Below, piece after piece: positions 36,980 to 42,914 of a stretch of DNA of 56,442 bases (positions are counted from its first letter, which is position 1; each line of letters begins with the position of its first letter). The DNA is taken from positions 1-56,442 of the forward strand of contig CAZFOG010000002.1 of assembly GCA_964520685.1 (NCBI GenBank), given 5' to 3'. The notes beneath the pieces are model-generated. The model was not told the DNA's origin and did not search any database. It was given only the letters and a program-made list of their open reading frames with translations. Made by a program: the position numbers and the translations under genes. This stretch comes from an uncultured Nitrospiraceae bacterium. GTDB taxonomy: Bacteria > Hydrogenedentota > Hydrogenedentia > Hydrogenedentales > SLHB01.

Positions 36980-37570
36980 ATGATTAGCGAAAAAGCATTG
37001 AAAGCTGCAGCAGCTGAAGTAAATGAATTGGGAGTTGATCCCCCAATTGACCTGAAAGCAGGTGTAAAAAAAATTACCGCTGGCCTGAAGGAGGCGATTG
37101 CGGATGTACTCGAAAAGGATGATGAATTTTCGAAGGAAACCGAAAAAGTTCTGATTGAACTTGGTTGGAATAAAGAGGAAGAGGAAGAGGAAGAGGAAGA
37201 GCAGGAAGAAGATGACGATGATGAAGAGGAAAAGGAAGAAAAGCAGAAAGTAGCAGAAAAGATTCATCAGAAGAATATTGCTAGCAAAGCTCCTATCATC
37301 AAAGAAGACAAGGGAGGAAAAGAAAAACCGGCAGCTCCGAAGGAAAAAAGGACTCCACCTCCCAGGAAGACCGGATCATACACTCGTATTGATGCTGTCT
37401 GCGATGCCCTGAAAACAAAGAAACCCAAGACTGTTAAGGACTGGGTAAAAGCAACCAACGAAGTCTACATTGAAAAGGGAGGTTCCGCCAACGACAGCGA
37501 AAGCTCTATGATGATCAAGTATGCTTCCAAGGTAATGACGCACTTTGATGTAAAATTCCCTACGGAATAA
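36980..37570 (+). CDS. hypothetical protein with poly-acidic tract
   Basis: 196 aa. Central NKEEEEEEEEEQEEDDDDEEEKEEK followed by a Lys/Pro-rich segment. Confidence 0.65.
   Translation: MISEKALKAAAAEVNELGVDPPIDLKAGVKKITAGLKEAIADVLEKDDEFSKETEKVLIELGWNKEEEEEEEEEQEEDDDDEEEKEEKQKVAEKIHQKNIASKAPIIKEDKGGKEKPAAPKEKRTPPPRKTGSYTRIDAVCDALKTKKPKTVKDWVKATNEVYIEKGGSANDSESSMMIKYASKVMTHFDVKFPTE
37175..37245 (+). repeat. GAA/GAG-rich low-complexity coding tract
   Basis: (GAGGAA)n-like run encoding the poly-Glu/Asp stretch. Generates the spurious minus-strand ORF 36971-37267. Confidence 0.8.
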
Positions 37571-38625
37571 TGTCGGAGGCGTTGTTAAAAAACAGTGTGA
37601 CGATTCGAGGGGACAGCCTGTACTGTCCTCTCGCATTGTCCATTGATAGTTACGGAAACTGTCTTACAGACTGCTGGCACTGTTACTTACGCAGATTAAA
37701 TCATACCTGGGGACAGGATTTAAAACCGGCAGATGTTTCTCTACTTGAGAAAAAGTTGGTTTCTGGACTTTCTAACAAGCATCCTAAAACTCCTTTAGCA
37801 TGGGCTTTATCTCAACGAAAAACCATTCGTTGGGGGAATAAGACTGATCCATTCCAAAAGGCAGAGTTGGAGTATCGGGTAGCTCGTCCGATATTTAACA
37901 TTCTTACAGAATTAGAATGGTCTTTCGTGATACAGACCCGGTTCACCTCTGTGCTTGAAGAATATGAACGGTATATATTGAGAGCCCATGGTAGGGGATT
38001 GATTACAATCATGCCTGTGATTTCTCCCGGATTGGAGAAGGATTGGTCCATTTTTGAACGGGAAAGAACTACGCCTCCGGAGGACAGATTGAGATCAATT
38101 CAGCGTTGGAAAGGTTTGAAAATACCTGTTGGAGTAAATGGAGAGCCTTTTATTCCAGGATTCCATACTGAAGAAGATTTTGAGAATGCTTTGAAGCTTT
38201 TGAAGGCGTACGGAATAAACCGATACAACACCTATAATTTCCATTTTAACGCTTTTGTAGCCCGACGACTTAATGATATTGGAATCGATATCGAGAGTAT
38301 TTGGTATTACAACCGGGATAAGCAGTGGAAAAAGATTTTGAGAAATTTATTGGACCTAGCGAAGAAATACGACATTATACTTGGATGCCCGGACTTTGTT
38401 AATTCAGGATTATCTTGGGTGGAACGGGCAAATACGTGCTGTGGAGTGGACGTTCCCAATCCATGTACTTTTAACACTCACCATTTTAAAAGACTGCATC
38501 AGAGCGGTAAATCTCCAGAGGAAATATTTAAACTCTCTTTTGATGGAACTGGAGATGAGAATATGGGAAGATCTATTATTGAAGGAAGCACGAAAGATTT
38601 CTACACTTTAAAAGATATCAAATGA
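37570..38625 (+). CDS. radical SAM protein 1 (SPL/COG1533-like)
   Basis: 351 aa. The CxxxCxxC cluster motif is present as NCLTDCWHCY near the N-terminus. Overall it resembles the spore-photoproduct-lyase/DNA-photolyase-like radical-SAM family. ATG overlaps the previous stop. Confidence 0.75.
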   Translation: MSEALLKNSVTIRGDSLYCPLALSIDSYGNCLTDCWHCYLRRLNHTWGQDLKPADVSLLEKKLVSGLSNKHPKTPLAWALSQRKTIRWGNKTDPFQKAELEYRVARPIFNILTELEWSFVIQTRFTSVLEEYERYILRAHGRGLITIMPVISPGLEKDWSIFERERTTPPEDRLRSIQRWKGLKIPVGVNGEPFIPGFHTEEDFENALKLLKAYGINRYNTYNFHFNAFVARRLNDIGIDIESIWYYNRDKQWKKILRNLLDLAKKYDIILGCPDFVNSGLSWVERANTCCGVDVPNPCTFNTHHFKRLHQSGKSPEEIFKLSFDGTGDENMGRSIIEGSTKDFYTLKDIK

Positions 38626-39440
38626 CTCCTATTGAAGAACACTATAATGTCTTAGTAAAACGGGATGATCTATGCTTTCCTCCCCCTGCCCCTCCATTCT
38701 CCAAATGTAGAGGTATAATCGAACACCTCCGTAAGTTGAAACGGGAAGGAATAGAATATGTTGGATATACTGAAACGTCCATTAGCATGGCTGGTTGGGG
38801 AGTAGCTTGGGCCTGTAAGGAATTGGGACTAAAAGCGGTTCTATTTGATCCTCAGTACAAGCAAACTCCCGAAGTTTTAAAATACCATCGTCAGCAATGG
38901 AAACAGTTTGATCCAATCATAGTTCCGATTCAGGCTGGGATGGCTTCTGTAAACGTACATATTGCTGCTAATATTTTACGGAGGACCTACAAGAACTCTA
39001 TTATGCTTCCTTTAGGGCTACCTTTTGAGGAAACAATGGAGGCTACCCGTGTAGAAACTATTGAAACTATGCAGGCTTTATCTTCTGAAAATATCAAATC
39101 AGTAGTAGTAAGCGTGGGTAGCGGTACAATATACGCTGGAATCTTCCGGGGGTTACACGATTTAGGTGCCCCCGTTACTTTATATGGAATCCTAACTCGA
39201 AGTAGTGATCTGAAAAGAAAGCGAACGTCCATTCAAAACAAGGCTGGTATATTTGAATTCGGATTATCTGATAGCCCTGTAAAAATGAAACTGATAGACA
39301 AAGATTGGGAGTACACTCAACGGAGTTATCAGGAATGTCCTTTCCCATGCCATCCGTATTACGATCTGAAAGCTTGGGAATGGTTAGTAAAAATACAATA
39401 TATTCCAGAGCGAATATTGTTTTGGAATATAGGAAAATAA
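38622..39440 (+). CDS. PLP-dependent fold-type-II enzyme (ACC deaminase / D-cysteine desulfhydrase-like)
   Basis: 272 aa. LVKRDDL...FSKCRG (candidate PLP lysine) and the Gly-rich VVSVGSGTIYAGI loop. ATGA overlap with radical-SAM gene 1. Confidence 0.65.
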   Translation: MTPIEEHYNVLVKRDDLCFPPPAPPFSKCRGIIEHLRKLKREGIEYVGYTETSISMAGWGVAWACKELGLKAVLFDPQYKQTPEVLKYHRQQWKQFDPIIVPIQAGMASVNVHIAANILRRTYKNSIMLPLGLPFEETMEATRVETIETMQALSSENIKSVVVSVGSGTIYAGIFRGLHDLGAPVTLYGILTRSSDLKRKRTSIQNKAGIFEFGLSDSPVKMKLIDKDWEYTQRSYQECPFPCHPYYDLKAWEWLVKIQYIPERILFWNIGK

Positions 39441-39458
39441 TGTTTAAATTTGTAGAAA

Positions 39459-41266: not shown

Positions 41267-42075
41267 ACATAGCTAAAGAACCTAATGGAAAAGTGGTAGA
41301 GGAAATATTTGCTCTTGCCCAAATTATGGATCAGAATGGAGGTCTTCGAAATTCCGTATATGCGGATGGAAAAGAGATTTACATTCTCAATTATGATCAT
41401 ACCGTACTAGTGCGGTTCAGATTGAAACCTAAAGAGCCAACATTTACTCAACCAATCTCCTTCAGAGCGAGTGACTATGAAGGCTCTGAGTTTGAAGAAG
41501 TAGATGGTAAAATCATTTTTAAAACTAAAAAGGCCGGGCACGTACGGAACAAAAGTTGTGGAAGGGCGGAATACTCTCCTGAAGAGGTCCGTCAAATGTT
41601 CAATAATCTTGTTACTACCGCTCCTGAAATGGTAAAGGGGATAATGTTGAATCAAGCCATAATGAGCTTATTGGATGCAGATTTGAGTCATGTTGAGTTT
41701 TCGGGAGAAAAAGGAGGTTCTTACACCATCGTCCAACGCAATATCTATTCAGGAGGAGTTATAACAGTCACACAGGAATTGGAAAGATTTGGAACTTTGG
41801 AGTTGGAAGAAGGCTTCGGTCCAGTGGGAATAAAAACAAATGACTTGGCGAGTCTATTTCAATTTGAAGATGATCTCAAGTTTGAATTCTCAGGTCGTGA
41901 AACAGAAGGTTCTTTCATAATTGTCCGGAGTTTCAACCGGGAAAAGAAAGATATGGTGGCCCTAATAGCAGGGTGTTTATATGATGAAATAATTAAAATA
42001 AGGGAGGTACAAAACAATGGGAGGCAAGAGCAGAAAGTCAGGAGGCGTAAGCAGGCAGCTGATAGCTCACATTAA
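41263..42075 (+). CDS. hypothetical protein (basic C-terminal tail)
   Basis: 270 aa. ATGA overlap with radical-SAM gene 2. No recognisable motif. Confidence 0.6.
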   Translation: MNIAKEPNGKVVEEIFALAQIMDQNGGLRNSVYADGKEIYILNYDHTVLVRFRLKPKEPTFTQPISFRASDYEGSEFEEVDGKIIFKTKKAGHVRNKSCGRAEYSPEEVRQMFNNLVTTAPEMVKGIMLNQAIMSLLDADLSHVEFSGEKGGSYTIVQRNIYSGGVITVTQELERFGTLELEEGFGPVGIKTNDLASLFQFEDDLKFEFSGRETEGSFIIVRSFNREKKDMVALIAGCLYDEIIKIREVQNNGRQEQKVRRRKQAADSSH

Positions 42076-42125
42076 GAGCGGACGGCTACCTCAGAGTAAA
42101 AACAAGAAGAAAGAACAAGTTCCAG

Positions 42126-42914
42126 ATGACAAAAACAAACGCAGAACTTTACTTGACGAGGGCGAGTGAGTTAAAAGTAGAACCAAACTTCTTTATGAGT
42201 CTTGCTTACATTCGATTGAGTAATTTAAGAGGGCGAGTTAAAGACGGGTGGGTATGGATACAGGATAAGAACTGGTGCGTATTTCCTCCTTTGCCTTTAG
42301 GAGATTCAAACATAGATTATAGTGCGAGTCGTATTTGGGCTTTGTTTGGGGATTCCGGTTCAAGTATCAGTTCTGATTACAAGTTTTTGGATTGGCAGTA
42401 TATTTTCTGTCCTCATAATTTTACTGCAATGACAGGAGGTTATTGGGAAACGTTTCGCAAGAACGTGCGTAAATGGCCTTCTCGAAATATCGGGTGGACT
42501 TATAGTGAAAAAAGTCCAACATTGAAAGAAGCAGGAGAGCTAATTGGAGAATGGTTAGAGATTCGTAAACAGTCGGTGGAGGATGCCGAATTCCTAGCCA
42601 GATTTGCCATTTTTGCACAGTTCTCTGGTATAGAAAGGAAATTTTTGTATAATAGTACAGGTCAGTTAATAGGAATTAACGCCTGGGACGAAAACTGGAA
42701 ATACATAAATTATCGGGTTTGTATAGTAAAACCTGGAGAGGACTTTCTAGATGAATTTATGCGGTATCTTTTCTTCACAGATGAGGATATACTACAACGA
42801 GAAAAACTTGTAAATGATGGAGGTACGCTAGGAAATTTAGGATTGGAAAGATTTAAAGATAAAATGAATCCTATTTCAAAAGTTAAAATTTATTCATATA
42901 TAAGAACATCATGA
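42126..42914 (+). CDS. DUF2156/MprF-C-terminal-like (GNAT-fold aminoacyl/acyl-transferase-like) protein, tentative
   Basis: 262 aa. The C-terminal ..NDGGTLGNLGLERFKDKMNP.. resembles the GLxxFKxKFxP ending of the DUF2156 family. ATGA overlap with the clamp gene. Confidence 0.45.
   Translation: MTKTNAELYLTRASELKVEPNFFMSLAYIRLSNLRGRVKDGWVWIQDKNWCVFPPLPLGDSNIDYSASRIWALFGDSGSSISSDYKFLDWQYIFCPHNFTAMTGGYWETFRKNVRKWPSRNIGWTYSEKSPTLKEAGELIGEWLEIRKQSVEDAEFLARFAIFAQFSGIERKFLYNSTGQLIGINAWDENWKYINYRVCIVKPGEDFLDEFMRYLFFTDEDILQREKLVNDGGTLGNLGLERFKDKMNPISKVKIYSYIRTS

What the first reader, a model, noticed from the sequence alone, without database searches (positions are those of the whole stretch)
37570..42914. 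Replication-module enzyme island (two SPL-like radical-SAM proteins, a PLP enzyme, an aminoacyl-transferase-like protein, two unknowns): candidate new DNA hypermodification pathway
Seven ORFs sit between the helicase and the clamp/polymerase genes, most joined by ATGA-type overlaps (38622, 39857, 41263, 42911). They are radical-SAM 1 (CLTDCWHC), a fold-type-II PLP enzyme (VKRDDL..FSKCRG, SVGSGT) and a 133-aa unknown. Then come radical-SAM 2 (CPFACSYC), a 270-aa unknown and a DUF2156/MprF-C-like protein (GLERFKDKMNP). Both radical-SAM proteins look like the COG1533/spore-photoproduct-lyase family, whose characterised members act directly on thymine in DNA. Radical-SAM plus PLP enzymes embedded in phage replication modules are the known hallmark of post-replicative thymidine hypermodification (the 5-hmdU-derived pathways of phages such as M6 and ViI). 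The polymerase here carries an SPO1-type UDG-like N-domain, and SPO1 has hmU DNA. However, I cannot recognise the hmdU kinase, the pyrophosphorylase or a dUMP hydroxymethylase in this window. The combination of two SPL-like paralogues with an aminoacyl-transferase-like fold matches no pathway I know. The chemistry, if it acts on DNA at all, may therefore be new.
Basis: partly seen in the sequence, partly recalled or inferred. Interest (0 to 1): 0.8.

Follow-up and report, generated by a model that had tools for sequence, protein, structure and literature searches.

The report
Phage DNA hypermodification module, kinase-free
An uncultured phage carries, inside its replication genes, a conserved enzyme set (two radical-SAM enzymes, a PLP enzyme, a tRNA-type amino-acid transferase and an extra PCNA-like clamp) that most likely decorates its DNA bases with an amino-acid-derived group, but without the three enzymes that start every known pathway of this kind.

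Summary
Six co-directional ORFs lie at 37570-42914 (seven with the acidic ORF 36980-37570). All quoted motifs and four ATGA overlaps check out.

- **PLP enzyme:** a clear homologue (34% identity, E~1e-49, catalytic Lys conserved) of the phage M6 gp52-type decarboxylase, which acts on glycinyl-thymine in DNA.
- **rSAM1:** homologous to the M6 gp53 glycinyl-thymine isomerase (hhalign 96.5%).
- **rSAM2:** a paralogue of rSAM1 and the most conserved gene of the lineage.
- **262-aa protein:** models confidently as a DUF2156/MprF-type aminoacyl-tRNA-dependent transferase.
- **270-aa "unknown":** a PCNA-like clamp, not an enzyme.

Across 63 related viral contigs, rSAM2, the PCNA-like protein and the DUF2156-like protein are invariant. 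The upstream cassette varies; in some relatives the PLP enzyme is replaced by a homologue of PaMx11 gp47 (N-alpha-glycinylthymidine oxidase, E=2e-31).

The same unit also occurs in family-B-polymerase viruses. No dUMP hydroxymethylase, 5-hmdU kinase or amino-acid:DNA transferase was found.

Best reading: a post-replicative pyrimidine hypermodification pathway with a known-type back end and a new front end. The chemistry is inferred, not shown.

The parts
36980..37570 (+). Acidic/basic 196-aa protein (poly-Glu/Asp run). It is a conserved left neighbour of the module and its function is unknown.
   Evidence: Only low-complexity Pfam hits. A homologous family (acid/c7) lies in the same position in 44 related loci.
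37570..38625 (+). rSAM1 (R1), a radical-SAM enzyme. It is the likely counterpart of the M6 gp53 on-DNA isomerase.
   Evidence: - NCBIfam PA0069 family E=1.4e-13 and Rv2578c family E=4.4e-9, far below the family cut-offs.
- phrog_13321.
- hhalign against gp53-type proteins: 96.5%, E=8e-10.
- Paralogue of rSAM2: 98%, E=2e-13.
- Invariant C19, C31, C35, C38, C273, C290 and C291.
37660..37683 (+). CxxxCxxC cluster motif of rSAM1 (CLTDCWHC, residues 31-38).
   Evidence: Translation. The three Cys are invariant in 39 orthologues.
38622..39440 (+). Fold-type II PLP enzyme, a homologue of the M6 gp52 / Yuavirus PLP-dependent decarboxylase that acts on amino-acid-thymine conjugates in DNA.
   Evidence: - PF00291 E=2e-11.
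- phrog_7093 E=4.9e-48.
- tblastn: 67 phage records at 34% identity over the full length.
- In those phages the gene sits between an amino acid:DNA transferase and a radical-SAM gene.
- E=1e-49 against the phage Lydia protein.
38703..38705 (+). Codon of Lys28 (in FSKCRG), the predicted PLP Schiff-base lysine.
   Evidence: It aligns with K36 of the Yuavirus protein. Lee et al. name that residue for M6 gp52 (PMC8989533).
39459..39860 (+). 133-aa accessory protein of unknown function. It usually lies just upstream of rSAM2.
   Evidence: No hit in Pfam, PHROGs or NCBIfam. The family (c17) is present in only 11 of about 65 loci and is absent, for example, from L010.
39857..41266 (+). rSAM2 (R2), a radical-SAM enzyme. 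It is the invariant and most conserved gene of the module.
   Evidence: - PF04055 at 37.1 bits, above the 29.5-bit cut-off.
- Rv2578c family E=7e-16, partial.
- Median 61% identity across distant loci, against 42% for the polymerase.
- 82 invariant columns including C75, C89, C93, C96, C121, C365 and C366.
- Orthologues occur only on viral-type contigs; the next cellular relatives are at 27% identity or less.
40121..40144 (+). CxxxCxxC cluster motif of rSAM2 (CPFACSYC, residues 89-96).
   Evidence: Translation; invariant. In relative L040 a mini-intein is inserted exactly at the third Cys.
41263..42075 (+). PCNA-like two-domain clamp-fold protein with a disordered basic C-terminal tail (...QKVRRRK...). 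It is probably the DNA-tethering platform of the module.
   Evidence: - AlphaFold2 mean pLDDT 83, pTM 0.79.
- Foldseek top hits are PCNA, 9-1-1 and beta-clamps: probability 1.0, E~4e-8, TM about 0.5.
- No Pfam or PDB sequence hit.
- It always lies between rSAM2 and the DUF2156-like gene, also in family-B-polymerase viruses.
42126..42914 (+). DUF2156/MprF-C-like tandem-GNAT protein, a predicted aminoacyl-tRNA-dependent aminoacyl transferase.
   Evidence: - AlphaFold2 mean pLDDT 93.7.
- Foldseek hits: 2hqy (E=1e-11), the MprF, L-PGS and A-PGS synthase domains, the Sbb17/Sba18 aminoacyl-tRNA-dependent peptide synthases, and FemX.
- 16 of 33 family members hit PF09924, best E=1.9e-6.
- Profile against PDB sequences: 2hqy at E=0.016.
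42911..43936 (+). Beta-clamp-like polymerase processivity factor. It is a context gene that overlaps the DUF2156-like gene by ATGA.
   Evidence: phrog_947 E=4.4e-29; weak Pfam DNA_pol3_beta hits.
43906..47354 (+). Split family-A DNA polymerase (context). The UDG plus 3'-5' exonuclease part is at 43906-45156 and the polymerase part at 45984-47354, with small ORFs between them.
   Evidence: PF03167 E=2.5e-22 and PF01612 E=8.6e-9. PF00476 E=1.2e-39.

Best explanation
The island is a post-replicative DNA-base hypermodification module. It most likely targets thymine (a C5-substituted pyrimidine) and attaches an amino-acid-derived side chain.

Back end (by homology to characterised enzymes). rSAM1 is the counterpart of M6 gp53, which isomerises N-alpha- to C-alpha-glycinylthymidine on DNA. 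The PLP enzyme is the counterpart of M6 gp52, which decarboxylates that product to 5-(2-aminoethyl)-dU. The window's product would therefore be an aminoethyl-type or closely related base.

Front end (inferred). The canonical route uses a dUMP hydroxymethylase, a 5-hmdU DNA kinase and an aGPT-Pplase2 amino acid:DNA transferase. Here it appears to be replaced by the invariant trio of rSAM2, the PCNA-like clamp and the DUF2156-like transferase.
- rSAM2 would activate the base by hydrogen abstraction, as SPL-family enzymes do on thymine. Its extra conserved cysteines may allow oxidation or capture of the radical.
- The DUF2156-like enzyme would deliver the amino acid from an aminoacyl-tRNA. One option is O-aminoacylation of a hydroxymethyl intermediate followed by on-base rearrangement. 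Another is presenting the aminoacyl group to the radical, as Elp3 does with acetyl-CoA.
- The PCNA-like ring would hold the enzymes on newly made DNA.

Related phages keep the trio and swap the tailoring enzymes (FAD oxidase, aldo-keto reductase, methyltransferase-like protein), giving different final bases. The purpose would be protection of phage DNA from host nucleases.

Shown here: the homologies, the folds and the gene linkage. Inferred: the DNA substrate, the target base, the amino acid, the order of steps and the tRNA dependence.
For: 1. The PLP enzyme is 34% identical over its full length to the Yuavirus (M6-type) enzyme, with E=1e-49. In those phages the gene is flanked by an amino acid:DNA transferase, a radical-SAM gene and a kinase. 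The catalytic Lys is conserved. M6 gp52 was shown to decarboxylate C-alpha-GlyT in DNA (PMC8989533).
2. rSAM1 matches gp53-type proteins by hhalign at 96.5%, E=8e-10.
3. In relatives such as L036, L047 and L048, the cassette slot holds a protein that matches PDB 8Z2O/8Z79 at E=2e-31. Those entries are PaMx11 gp47, the N-alpha-GlyT oxidase crystallised with dsDNA. Two independent tailoring enzymes of this lineage thus have DNA-acting, glycinyl-thymine-specific homologues.
4. rSAM2, the PCNA-like gene and the DUF2156-like gene are adjacent in essentially all of 63 IMG/VR loci. The same unit occurs in family-B-polymerase viruses, with PLP or R1 alongside: L142, L143 and L144. Linkage is therefore preserved across replication backgrounds.
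5. rSAM2 is more conserved than the polymerase. It is also an intein target at its cluster cysteine.
6. The DUF2156-like fold is confident. tRNA-dependent DNA hypermodification has a precedent in phage Mu Mom (PMC13219725).
7. No Pfam, PHROG, tblastn or hhalign trace of thymidylate-synthase-like, 5-HMUDK or aGPT-Pplase genes was found in the window, in 66 loci, or in the roughly 7 kb the window lacks as seen in relative L013.
8. The module is embedded in, and translationally coupled to, the replication genes.
Against: - There is no experimental datum on the DNA of this or any related phage, and no cultured relative exists in the phage collection.
- rSAM2 itself aligns only weakly with gp53 (hhalign 17.6%). 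Neither radical-SAM profile reaches SPL or any solved structure by sequence.
- The window's own DUF2156-like protein has no Pfam hit at E<=0.1; only its relatives do. A tandem-GNAT fold could use an acyl-CoA instead of a tRNA.
- An aminoacyl-tRNA transferase consumes the carboxyl group that the PLP decarboxylase would need. The order of steps therefore needs a rearrangement or a radical coupling that has no direct precedent.
- In family-B-polymerase viruses the PCNA-like protein could simply be the replicative clamp.
- One relative has a ThyA-like gene (L056) and one has a ThyX gene next to rSAM2 (L142). A nucleotide-level route therefore cannot be excluded everywhere.
- Non-homologous analogues of the missing enzymes could hide among the unknown ORFs (u133, u196, and the 548-aa ORF at 27182-28828).
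Confidence: 0.55

Rival explanations
1. This is the canonical 5-hmdU route after all. The phage makes the M6-type base through 5-hmdU, phosphorylation and amino-acid transfer. Those three enzymes would be encoded outside the window, supplied by the host, or be non-homologous analogues among the unknown ORFs. rSAM2 and the DUF2156-like protein would then be extra tailoring steps, for example aminoacylation of the final amine, much as PaMx11 gp48 acetylates 5-NmdU.
For: - The back-end homologies are the same as in M6.
- The window lacks about 7 kb of the genome.
- PaMx11 uses a GNAT enzyme late in its pathway (PMC8989533).
- L056 has a ThyA-like gene and L142 a ThyX gene.
Against: - The missing 7 kb, as seen in the 67%-identical relative L013, holds an epimerase, an SbcC part, DNA methylases and glycosyltransferases. 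It holds no hydroxymethylase, kinase or transferase.
- None of 66 loci of 20 kb has a kinase or amino acid:DNA transferase hit.
- hhalign of the unknown families against these enzymes is negative.
- The window has no nucleotide-metabolism genes at all.
- rSAM2 and the DUF2156-like protein are the invariant part, while the known tailoring enzymes are the variable part. That is the opposite of what late decoration predicts.
Confidence: 0.15
2. There are two unrelated functions. rSAM2 plus the PCNA-like clamp (and perhaps the DUF2156-like protein) would be a replication-coupled DNA repair or maintenance device: an SPL-like lyase riding its own clamp. Only rSAM1 and the PLP enzyme, if anything, would modify DNA.
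For: - COG1533-type radical-SAM proteins are generically annotated as DNA repair photolyases.
- 9-1-1-like clamps recruit repair enzymes (Foldseek hits).
- rSAM2 aligns poorly with gp53.
Against: - A DUF2156-type aminoacyl transferase has no place in repair, yet it is inseparable from rSAM2 and the clamp.
- The variable cassette of amino-acid-processing enzymes always abuts this trio.
- R1 and PLP travel with the trio into family-B-polymerase viruses.
- rSAM1 and rSAM2 are paralogues sharing a C-terminal CC motif.
Confidence: 0.1
3. The substrate is not DNA, or not thymine. The module might remodel aminoacyl-tRNA, tRNA bases, a lipid (MprF-like) or a small metabolite. Or it might acylate an exocyclic amine of A, C or G as Mom does.
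For: - All characterised DUF2156, MprF and Fem enzymes act on lipids, peptidoglycan precursors or small molecules (Foldseek list).
- Radical-SAM plus GNAT (Elp3) acts on tRNA (general knowledge).
- Mom targets adenine.
Against: - The two tailoring enzyme families with characterised homologues (gp52-like and gp47-like) act on pyrimidine-C5 glycine conjugates in double-stranded DNA.
- A clamp-fold protein is an integral member of the unit.
- The genes are embedded between helicase and polymerase.
- A ThyX gene lies next to rSAM2 in L142.
Confidence: 0.15

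Closest known systems
Pseudomonas phage M6 / Yuavirus 5-(2-aminoethyl)-dU (5-NedU) pathway: gp51 aGPT-Pplase2, gp52 PLP decarboxylase, gp53 radical-SAM isomerase, gp54 5-hmdU DNA kinase (Lee et al., PMC8989533)
   Same: - A PLP enzyme of the same family: 34% identity with the Lys conserved.
- A gp53-related radical-SAM enzyme, rSAM1.
- The genes are adjacent and lie near the replication genes.
   Different: - No kinase, no aGPT-Pplase and no dUMP hydroxymethylase.
- A second, far more conserved radical-SAM paralogue, a DUF2156-like transferase and a PCNA-like clamp are present instead.
- The host lineage and phage family are unrelated: there is no nucleotide similarity.
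Pseudomonas phage PaMx11 5-NmdU / 5-AcNmdU pathway (gp46 transferase, gp47 N-alpha-GlyT oxidase, gp48 acetyltransferase; PDB 8Z2M-8Z79)
   Same: - Relatives of this phage carry a gp47 homologue (E=2e-31) in the slot where the window has the PLP enzyme.
- A GNAT-superfamily enzyme takes part.
   Different: - The window itself has no FAD enzyme.
- The GNAT-type protein here is a tandem DUF2156 type rather than a simple acetyltransferase.
- No gp46 or kinase homologue is present.
Phage Mu Mom (GNAT enzyme using Gly-tRNA(Gly) to modify N6 of adenine in dsDNA; PMC13219725)
   Same: The concept is shared: an acyltransferase-fold enzyme uses charged tRNA to hypermodify phage DNA, followed by an on-base rearrangement.
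   Different: - Mom is a single-domain GNAT acting alone on adenine.
- Here the protein is a tandem-GNAT DUF2156 type. It is always coupled to two radical-SAM enzymes and a clamp, and tRNA use is only predicted.
Spore photoproduct lyase and the COG1533 (PA0069 / Rv2578c) radical-SAM group
   Same: - The CxxxCxxC motif lies near the N-terminus.
- There are partial NCBIfam matches.
- gp53, the link protein, was matched to SPL 4FHE by Lee et al..
- SPL chemistry centres on the thymine methyl/allyl radical.
   Different: - Scores are far below the family cut-offs.
- No PDB sequence hit.
- The N- and C-terminal regions and the conserved CC motif are specific to the phage proteins.
- The proposed role is biosynthetic, not repair.
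MprF / aminoacyl-phosphatidylglycerol synthase C-domain (PF09924) and Sbb17/Sba18 aminoacyl-tRNA-dependent peptide synthases
   Same: The tandem-GNAT fold is shared, with Foldseek E from 1e-11 to 1e-7, and relatives hit PF09924.
   Different: - It is about 262 aa, a stand-alone soluble protein with no membrane domain.
- It is 9-14% identical to any solved member.
- The acceptor is presumed to be a DNA base.
Elp3 (radical-SAM plus GNAT, makes cm5U on tRNA)
   Same: It couples radical-SAM hydrogen abstraction with a GNAT-bound acyl donor to build a C5 substituent on a uracil ring (general knowledge). This is a mechanistic analogy for rSAM2 plus the DUF2156-like protein.
   Different: No detectable sequence relationship was seen. 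In Elp3 the two domains are fused, the donor is acetyl-CoA and the substrate is tRNA.

Membership tests
5-hmdU-derived thymidine hypermodification pathway (M6 / ViI / PaMx11 type) | Source of 5-hmdU: a ThyA-like dUMP hydroxymethylase or a TET/JBP dioxygenase | tested here: not met
   - No Pfam, PHROG or NCBIfam hit among the window ORFs scanned.
- tblastn with a phage ThyA-like protein gave no hit in the window or in 11 loci.
- Among 66 loci only L056 has a ThyA-like ORF.
- The missing genome part, as seen in L013, has none.
5-hmdU-derived thymidine hypermodification pathway (M6 / ViI / PaMx11 type) | 5-hmdU DNA kinase (P-loop, gp54-like) | tested here: not met
   - tblastn with the Yuavirus kinase gave no hit.
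- hhalign of the unknown gene families against the kinase gave probability of 0.4% or less.
- A non-homologous kinase cannot be excluded.
5-hmdU-derived thymidine hypermodification pathway (M6 / ViI / PaMx11 type) | aGPT-Pplase clade 2 amino acid:DNA transferase | tested here: not met
   - No Pfam hit.
- tblastn was negative.
- hhalign gave 0.9% or less.
- Foldseek of the two modelled unknowns found clamp and DUF2156 folds, not PDB 8Z2M.
5-hmdU-derived thymidine hypermodification pathway (M6 / ViI / PaMx11 type) | gp52-type PLP-dependent decarboxylase | tested here: met
   - 34% identity over 272 aa, E=1e-49.
- phrog_7093 E=5e-48.
- The Lys is aligned.
- Activity was not tested.
5-hmdU-derived thymidine hypermodification pathway (M6 / ViI / PaMx11 type) | gp53-type radical-SAM isomerase | tested here: inconclusive
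   - rSAM1 by hhalign: 96.5% over 174 columns.
- rSAM2 by hhalign: only 17.6%.
- BLAST identity is about 20%.
- This shows homology to the family; orthology and activity are not shown.
Radical SAM superfamily (PF04055) | CxxxCxxC cluster motif and a Pfam match above the gathering score | tested here: met
   - rSAM2 scores 37.1 bits against a cut-off of 29.5.
- rSAM1 scores only 18.3 bits, but it has the invariant motif and is a paralogue of rSAM2.
Spore photoproduct lyase (SplB) family | Sequence or structure match to SPL itself | tested here: not met
   - Profile searches of PDB sequences with 41 rSAM2 and 39 rSAM1 sequences found no SPL.
- Only the broader COG1533-type NCBIfam models match, far below their cut-offs.
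DUF2156 / LPG_synthase_C (PF09924) aminoacyl-tRNA-dependent transferases | Tandem-GNAT fold resembling MprF C-domain or 2hqy | tested here: met
   Model mean pLDDT 93.7. Foldseek against 2hqy gave E=1.2e-11 and TM 0.69-0.72, followed by MprF, L-PGS, A-PGS, Sbb17 and FemX.
DUF2156 / LPG_synthase_C (PF09924) aminoacyl-tRNA-dependent transferases | Pfam model match | tested here: inconclusive
   The window protein has no hit at E<=0.1. 16 of 33 orthologues hit PF09924, best E=1.9e-6. The precomputed hits are marked faint.
DUF2156 / LPG_synthase_C (PF09924) aminoacyl-tRNA-dependent transferases | Use of aminoacyl-tRNA as donor | not testable with these tools
   This needs an in vitro assay with charged tRNA and an RNase control.
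PCNA / sliding-clamp fold | Two clamp-fold domains per subunit | tested here: met
   Model mean pLDDT 83. The top 50 Foldseek hits are all PCNA, 9-1-1 or beta-clamp, with probability 1.0 and TM 0.45-0.55.
PCNA / sliding-clamp fold | Ring assembly around DNA and loading by a clamp loader | not tested
   No multimer prediction was available. The TM of only about 0.5 leaves room for a non-ring variant.

The most novel reading that the evidence does not exclude
A DNA hypermodification pathway that needs no modified nucleotide precursor. A radical-SAM enzyme (rSAM2) would functionalise the C5-methyl of ordinary thymine directly in double-stranded DNA. A DUF2156-type enzyme would supply the amino acid from aminoacyl-tRNA, and both would ride on a dedicated PCNA-like clamp. 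Together they would replace the hydroxymethylase, kinase and transferase route. This would be the first radical C-H amino-acylation or alkylation of a canonical DNA base, the second known tRNA-dependent DNA modification, and the first modification machinery with its own sliding clamp.
Probability: 0.3. Interest if true: 0.9.

Novelty: new variant of a known kind. Interest (0 to 1): 0.78.

Why it matters
Phage DNA hypermodifications defeat restriction and CRISPR nucleases, and they are sources of new DNA-modifying enzymes for biotechnology. Every characterised thymidine hypermodification starts from 5-hmdU and a DNA kinase, and the published metagenome survey was seeded on that kinase. Clusters like this one were therefore invisible to it.

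The same back-end enzymes are here coupled to a different, strictly conserved front end: a radical-SAM enzyme, a tRNA-type transferase and a clamp. This unit is found in at least two viral replication lineages, in dozens of metagenomic contigs (63 IMG/VR loci plus others).

If the front end acts on canonical thymine, it would be new enzymology, namely site-directed radical functionalisation of DNA. It would also link translation substrates to DNA chemistry a second time and show a clamp recruited for base modification. The variable cassettes predict a family of at least five different, still unknown modified bases.

Tried and rejected
- **Nucleotide similarity to known phages:** none (blastn). 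tblastn with rSAM2 gave only two weak hits in uncultured phage records, so no cultured relative is available to consult.
- **PDB sequence-profile searches:** nothing usable for rSAM1, rSAM2 or the 270-aa protein. The 270-aa protein needed structure prediction.
- **The unknown ORFs as disguised pathway enzymes.** I asked whether the 270-aa, 262-aa and 133-aa ORFs, or the relatives' c13, c20, c38, c46 and c55 genes, were a disguised kinase or amino acid:DNA transferase. This was rejected by hhalign and by the folds.
- **The missing enzymes lying in the part of the genome outside the window.** I reconstructed that part from relative L013. The window's left-end glycosyltransferases match the right end of that stretch. 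It holds an epimerase, an SbcC fragment, two DNA methylases and glycosyltransferases only.
- **rSAM2 as the gp53 orthologue**, as similar length suggested: rejected, because rSAM1 is the closer one.
- **Promoter and terminator scan of 35000-46500:** no enrichment over shuffles, so uninformative.
- **tRNA scan:** no tRNA genes, so the phage does not bring its own tRNA donor.
- **BFVD fold search with the DUF2156-like model:** only unannotated or generic GNAT viral proteins.
- **Host assignment:** only a weak hint. One 5.8-kb contig binned with a Bacteroidota MAG carries a 93%-identical rSAM2.

Full report
**1. The observation**

The region 37570-42914 holds six co-directional ORFs of 351, 272, 133, 469, 270 and 262 aa. 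With the acidic 196-aa ORF at 36980-37570, seven ORFs lie between the AAA_25 helicase (35645-36889) and the beta-clamp-like gene (42911-43936). The four ATGA start/stop overlaps at 38622, 39857, 41263 and 42911 are also real.

The downstream polymerase is a split family-A enzyme with a UDG plus 3'-5' exonuclease part and a separate polymerase part.

The same gene string is found on many independent metagenomic contigs. Near-identical copies are L003-L008 and L023-L026. Copies down to about 33% amino-acid identity also occur, so these are genuine genes under selection.

**2. What each protein is**

*PLP enzyme (38622-39440).* PF00291 scores above the gathering cut-off and phrog_7093 gives E=5e-48. 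By tblastn it matches 67 cultured phages over its whole length at 34% identity, mostly Pseudomonas Yuavirus (M6-like). In those genomes the homologue sits in the string amino acid:DNA transferase, PLP enzyme, radical-SAM enzyme, kinase. That string is the 5-NedU cluster of phage M6.

Lee et al. showed that in M6, gp52 decarboxylates C-alpha-glycinylthymidine in DNA and gp53 isomerises N-alpha- to C-alpha-glycinylthymidine (PMC8989533). The lysine they proposed for the Schiff base (K36) aligns with Lys28 of the window protein.

*rSAM1 (37570-38625) and rSAM2 (39857-41266).* Both carry an invariant CxxxCxxC and further invariant cysteines, including a shared C-terminal CC motif.
- They are paralogues: hhalign 98%, E=2e-13 over 277 columns.
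- NCBIfam places both weakly in the COG1533-type PA0069/Rv2578c radical-SAM group.
- rSAM1, not rSAM2, is the closer relative of the gp53-type isomerase: 96.5% against 17.6%.
- Profile searches of PDB sequences did not reach spore photoproduct lyase. 'SPL-like' therefore rests on the COG1533 group and on the gp53-to-SPL link reported by Lee et al.

*262-aa protein (42126-42914).* It has no Pfam hit itself, but 16 of 33 orthologues hit PF09924 (LPG_synthase_C, formerly DUF2156). An AlphaFold2 model with mean pLDDT 93.7 matches several solved structures:
- the DUF2156 structure 2hqy (E=1e-11, TM about 0.7);
- the synthase domains of MprF, L-PGS and A-PGS;
- the aminoacyl-tRNA-dependent peptide synthases Sbb17 and Sba18;
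- FemX.

It is a tandem-GNAT protein of the aminoacyl-tRNA-dependent transferase type.

*270-aa protein (41263-42075).* It has no sequence hit anywhere. Its model (mean pLDDT 83) matches only PCNA, 9-1-1 and beta-clamps, with probability 1.0 and TM about 0.5. It is a two-domain clamp-fold protein with a disordered basic C-terminal tail, so it is not an enzyme.

*133-aa ORF.* It has no detectable relatives outside this lineage and is present in only 11 loci.

**3. Comparative genomics**

A scan of IMG/VR with the PCNA-like family returned 63 loci. I called ORFs, clustered them and mapped them.

The order helicase, acidic protein, [cassette], rSAM2, PCNA-like, DUF2156-like, beta-clamp, polymerase is constant. 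rSAM2, the PCNA-like gene and the DUF2156-like gene are present wherever the region is covered.

rSAM2 is the best conserved gene of all. Its median identity to the window is 61%, against 42% for the polymerase and 34% for the clamp. In some relatives a mini-intein is inserted exactly at the third cluster cysteine, which is a mark of a critical site.

The cassette upstream of rSAM2 varies:

| Cassette | Content |
|---|---|
| Window type | rSAM1 + PLP |
| Variant | rSAM1 + methyltransferase-like c13 + aldo-keto reductase c14 |
| Variant | rSAM1 + FAD oxidoreductase c27 + c14 |
| Variant | rSAM1 + c13 + PLP |
| Variant | DUF362 protein + c38 + a divergent rSAM1-like protein |
| Minimal | rSAM1 alone |

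The FAD protein matches PDB 8Z2O/8Z79 at E=2e-31 over its full length. Those entries are PaMx11 gp47, the N-alpha-glycinylthymidine oxidase solved in complex with dsDNA.

Two different cassette enzymes of this lineage thus have characterised homologues. Both homologues act on glycine attached to the C5-methylene of a pyrimidine in DNA.

**4. The unit in other viruses**

A search of 1.84 billion representative proteins found 40 rSAM2-family representatives at E<=1e-30. Three of the more distant ones (30-35% identity) lie on contigs with a family-B polymerase, and in two of them also an RFC-like loader and an ERCC4 nuclease:
- L142: PLP ... ThyX, rSAM2-like, GNAT ... PCNA-like(?) ... DUF2156-like, PolB.
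- L143: PLP, rSAM2-like, PCNA-like, DUF2156-like, Dam, PolB.
- L144: rSAM2-like, PCNA-like, DUF2156-like, rSAM1-like.

hhalign gave 95-99.5% for these assignments, except the L142 PCNA-like candidate, which reached only 46% on its own. The unit therefore keeps together across unrelated replication modules. This is strong evidence that its members work together.

In cellular genomes rSAM2 orthologues appear only on four short MAG contigs. The next best matches are at 27% identity or less.

**5. What is missing**

No thymidylate-synthase-like hydroxymethylase, TET/JBP enzyme, 5-hmdU kinase or aGPT-Pplase was detected by any route:
- Pfam, PHROGs or NCBIfam scans of the island and of the larger ORFs in the rest of the window; small ORFs and part of the structural module were not scanned;
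- tblastn with Yuavirus proteins against the window and 66 loci;
- hhalign against the unknown gene families.

The window covers about 56 of roughly 63 kb. The missing stretch, read from the 67%-identical relative L013, holds an epimerase, an SbcC part, two DNA methylases and glycosyltransferases that continue into the window's left end. The window has no nucleotide-metabolism genes at all.

The exceptions among relatives are one ThyA-like ORF (L056) and one ThyX gene (L142).

**6. Mechanism**

*Shown.* The homologies, the folds and the gene linkage described above.

*Inferred.* The module modifies a pyrimidine, most likely thymine, in newly replicated DNA with an amino-acid-derived group. rSAM1 and the PLP enzyme would perform M6-like isomerisation and decarboxylation, giving an aminoethyl-type base. 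In relatives an oxidase/reductase or methyltransferase-like set would give other end products.

The invariant trio must provide what the hydroxymethylase, kinase and transferase provide elsewhere, namely an activated C5-methyl and an amino acid. Two routes seem chemically coherent:
- (a) rSAM2 oxidises the thymine methyl, by radical formation and then capture. The DUF2156-like enzyme esterifies the resulting hydroxymethyl with an aminoacyl group from tRNA, as MprF esterifies a glycerol hydroxyl. The ester then rearranges on the base to the N-linked amino acid. This would be analogous to the on-base rearrangement shown for Mom.
- (b) An Elp3-like joint reaction, in which the radical enzyme couples the tRNA-bound aminoacyl group to the base.

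The PCNA-like protein would tether the enzymes to DNA.

*Weak points.* There are no experimental data. rSAM2 resembles gp53 only weakly. tRNA use is unproven. An aminoacyl transfer consumes the carboxylate that the decarboxylase needs, unless a rearrangement or radical coupling intervenes.

**7. Comparison and novelty**

The back end is a member of the known thymidine-hypermodification toolkit. The pathway as a whole fails three of the five defining features of the 5-hmdU route, so it should not be filed as an M6-type cluster.

The published metavirome survey recovered clusters by searching for the kinase. Full-text searches found no paper that couples DUF2156 with phage DNA modification.

I rate it a new variant of a known kind. 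There is a substantial chance, about 0.3, that the front end is categorically new chemistry.

**8. Verdict**

Interest is high because the module is conserved, widespread among uncultured viruses and directly testable by heterologous expression.

Noticed in passing
window 48289-49438: A 1.15-kb insertion relative to a 96%-identical contig of the same phage (L005). It carries an IS110-type transposase ORF at 48463-49434 (PF02371, E=4.9e-8). About five direct repeats of 'AAGTGAATCA...AAGAAACCCA' precede it at 48295-48465, and the AAGTGAATCAATAAAA motif recurs at the right edge.
   Followed up: partly
window 45153-45769: Two small paralogous ORFs (45159-45419 and 45416-45730, both with a YWWP motif) sit between the UDG-exonuclease and polymerase halves of the split family-A polymerase. 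They replace about 100 bp in L005. Some relatives have the polymerase fused (840-890 aa) and others have it split.
   Followed up: partly
L040:8121-9989 (also L031, L039, L045, L046): rSAM2 orthologues carry a mini-intein of about 137 aa inserted exactly at the third Cys of the CxxxCxxC motif (...CPYNCLY|CFPAGTKIL...VVHN|CYANAF...). In four other loci the gene is split into two ORFs at the same site.
   Followed up: partly
L142:2469-10448, L143:3-4509, L144:744-4944: Viruses with a family-B polymerase (L142, L143; these two also have an RFC-like loader and an ERCC4 nuclease) and the short contig L144 carry the same rSAM2-like, PCNA-like, DUF2156-like unit. In L142 a ThyX gene lies directly upstream of rSAM2 and a simple GNAT acetyltransferase directly downstream.
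   Followed up: partly
L009:12290-14899 and L041:3560-5032: A further radical-SAM paralogue (491-870 aa) lies between the clamp and polymerase genes in some relatives. The one in L009 contains an intein and a DUF559 endonuclease domain.
   Followed up: no
window 2083-3562 (- strand); L013:4804-14203: Two glycosyltransferase genes (phrog_2644 and a sialyltransferase-like phrog_4603) lie next to the head genes. Relative L013 has three glycosyltransferases, an NAD-dependent sugar epimerase/dehydratase and two N6/N4 DNA methylases in the stretch the window lacks. Whether the sugars go onto DNA, the virion or the host surface is unknown.
   Followed up: no
window 36980-37570: A 196-aa protein with a run of about 25 Glu/Asp residues followed by a Lys/Pro-rich segment. 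A homologous family occupies the same slot upstream of the cassette in 44 related loci. Its function is unknown.
   Followed up: partly
window 27182-29805: A 548-aa ORF with no hit in Pfam or PHROGs, followed by a 324-aa M28/M42-like metallopeptidase, at the start of the rightward replication module.
   Followed up: no
window 24000-26000: The cumulative GC skew reaches its minimum here, where the leftward structural genes and the rightward early and replication genes diverge. GC skew changes sign across this point.
   Followed up: no
window 32251-32706: A phage-encoded sigma-70 region-2 protein (PF04542, E=2e-11) lies upstream of the primase and helicase genes. Together with a 93%-identical rSAM2 on a contig binned with a Bacteroidota MAG (L086), this is the only hint at a bacterial, possibly Bacteroidota, host.
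   Followed up: no
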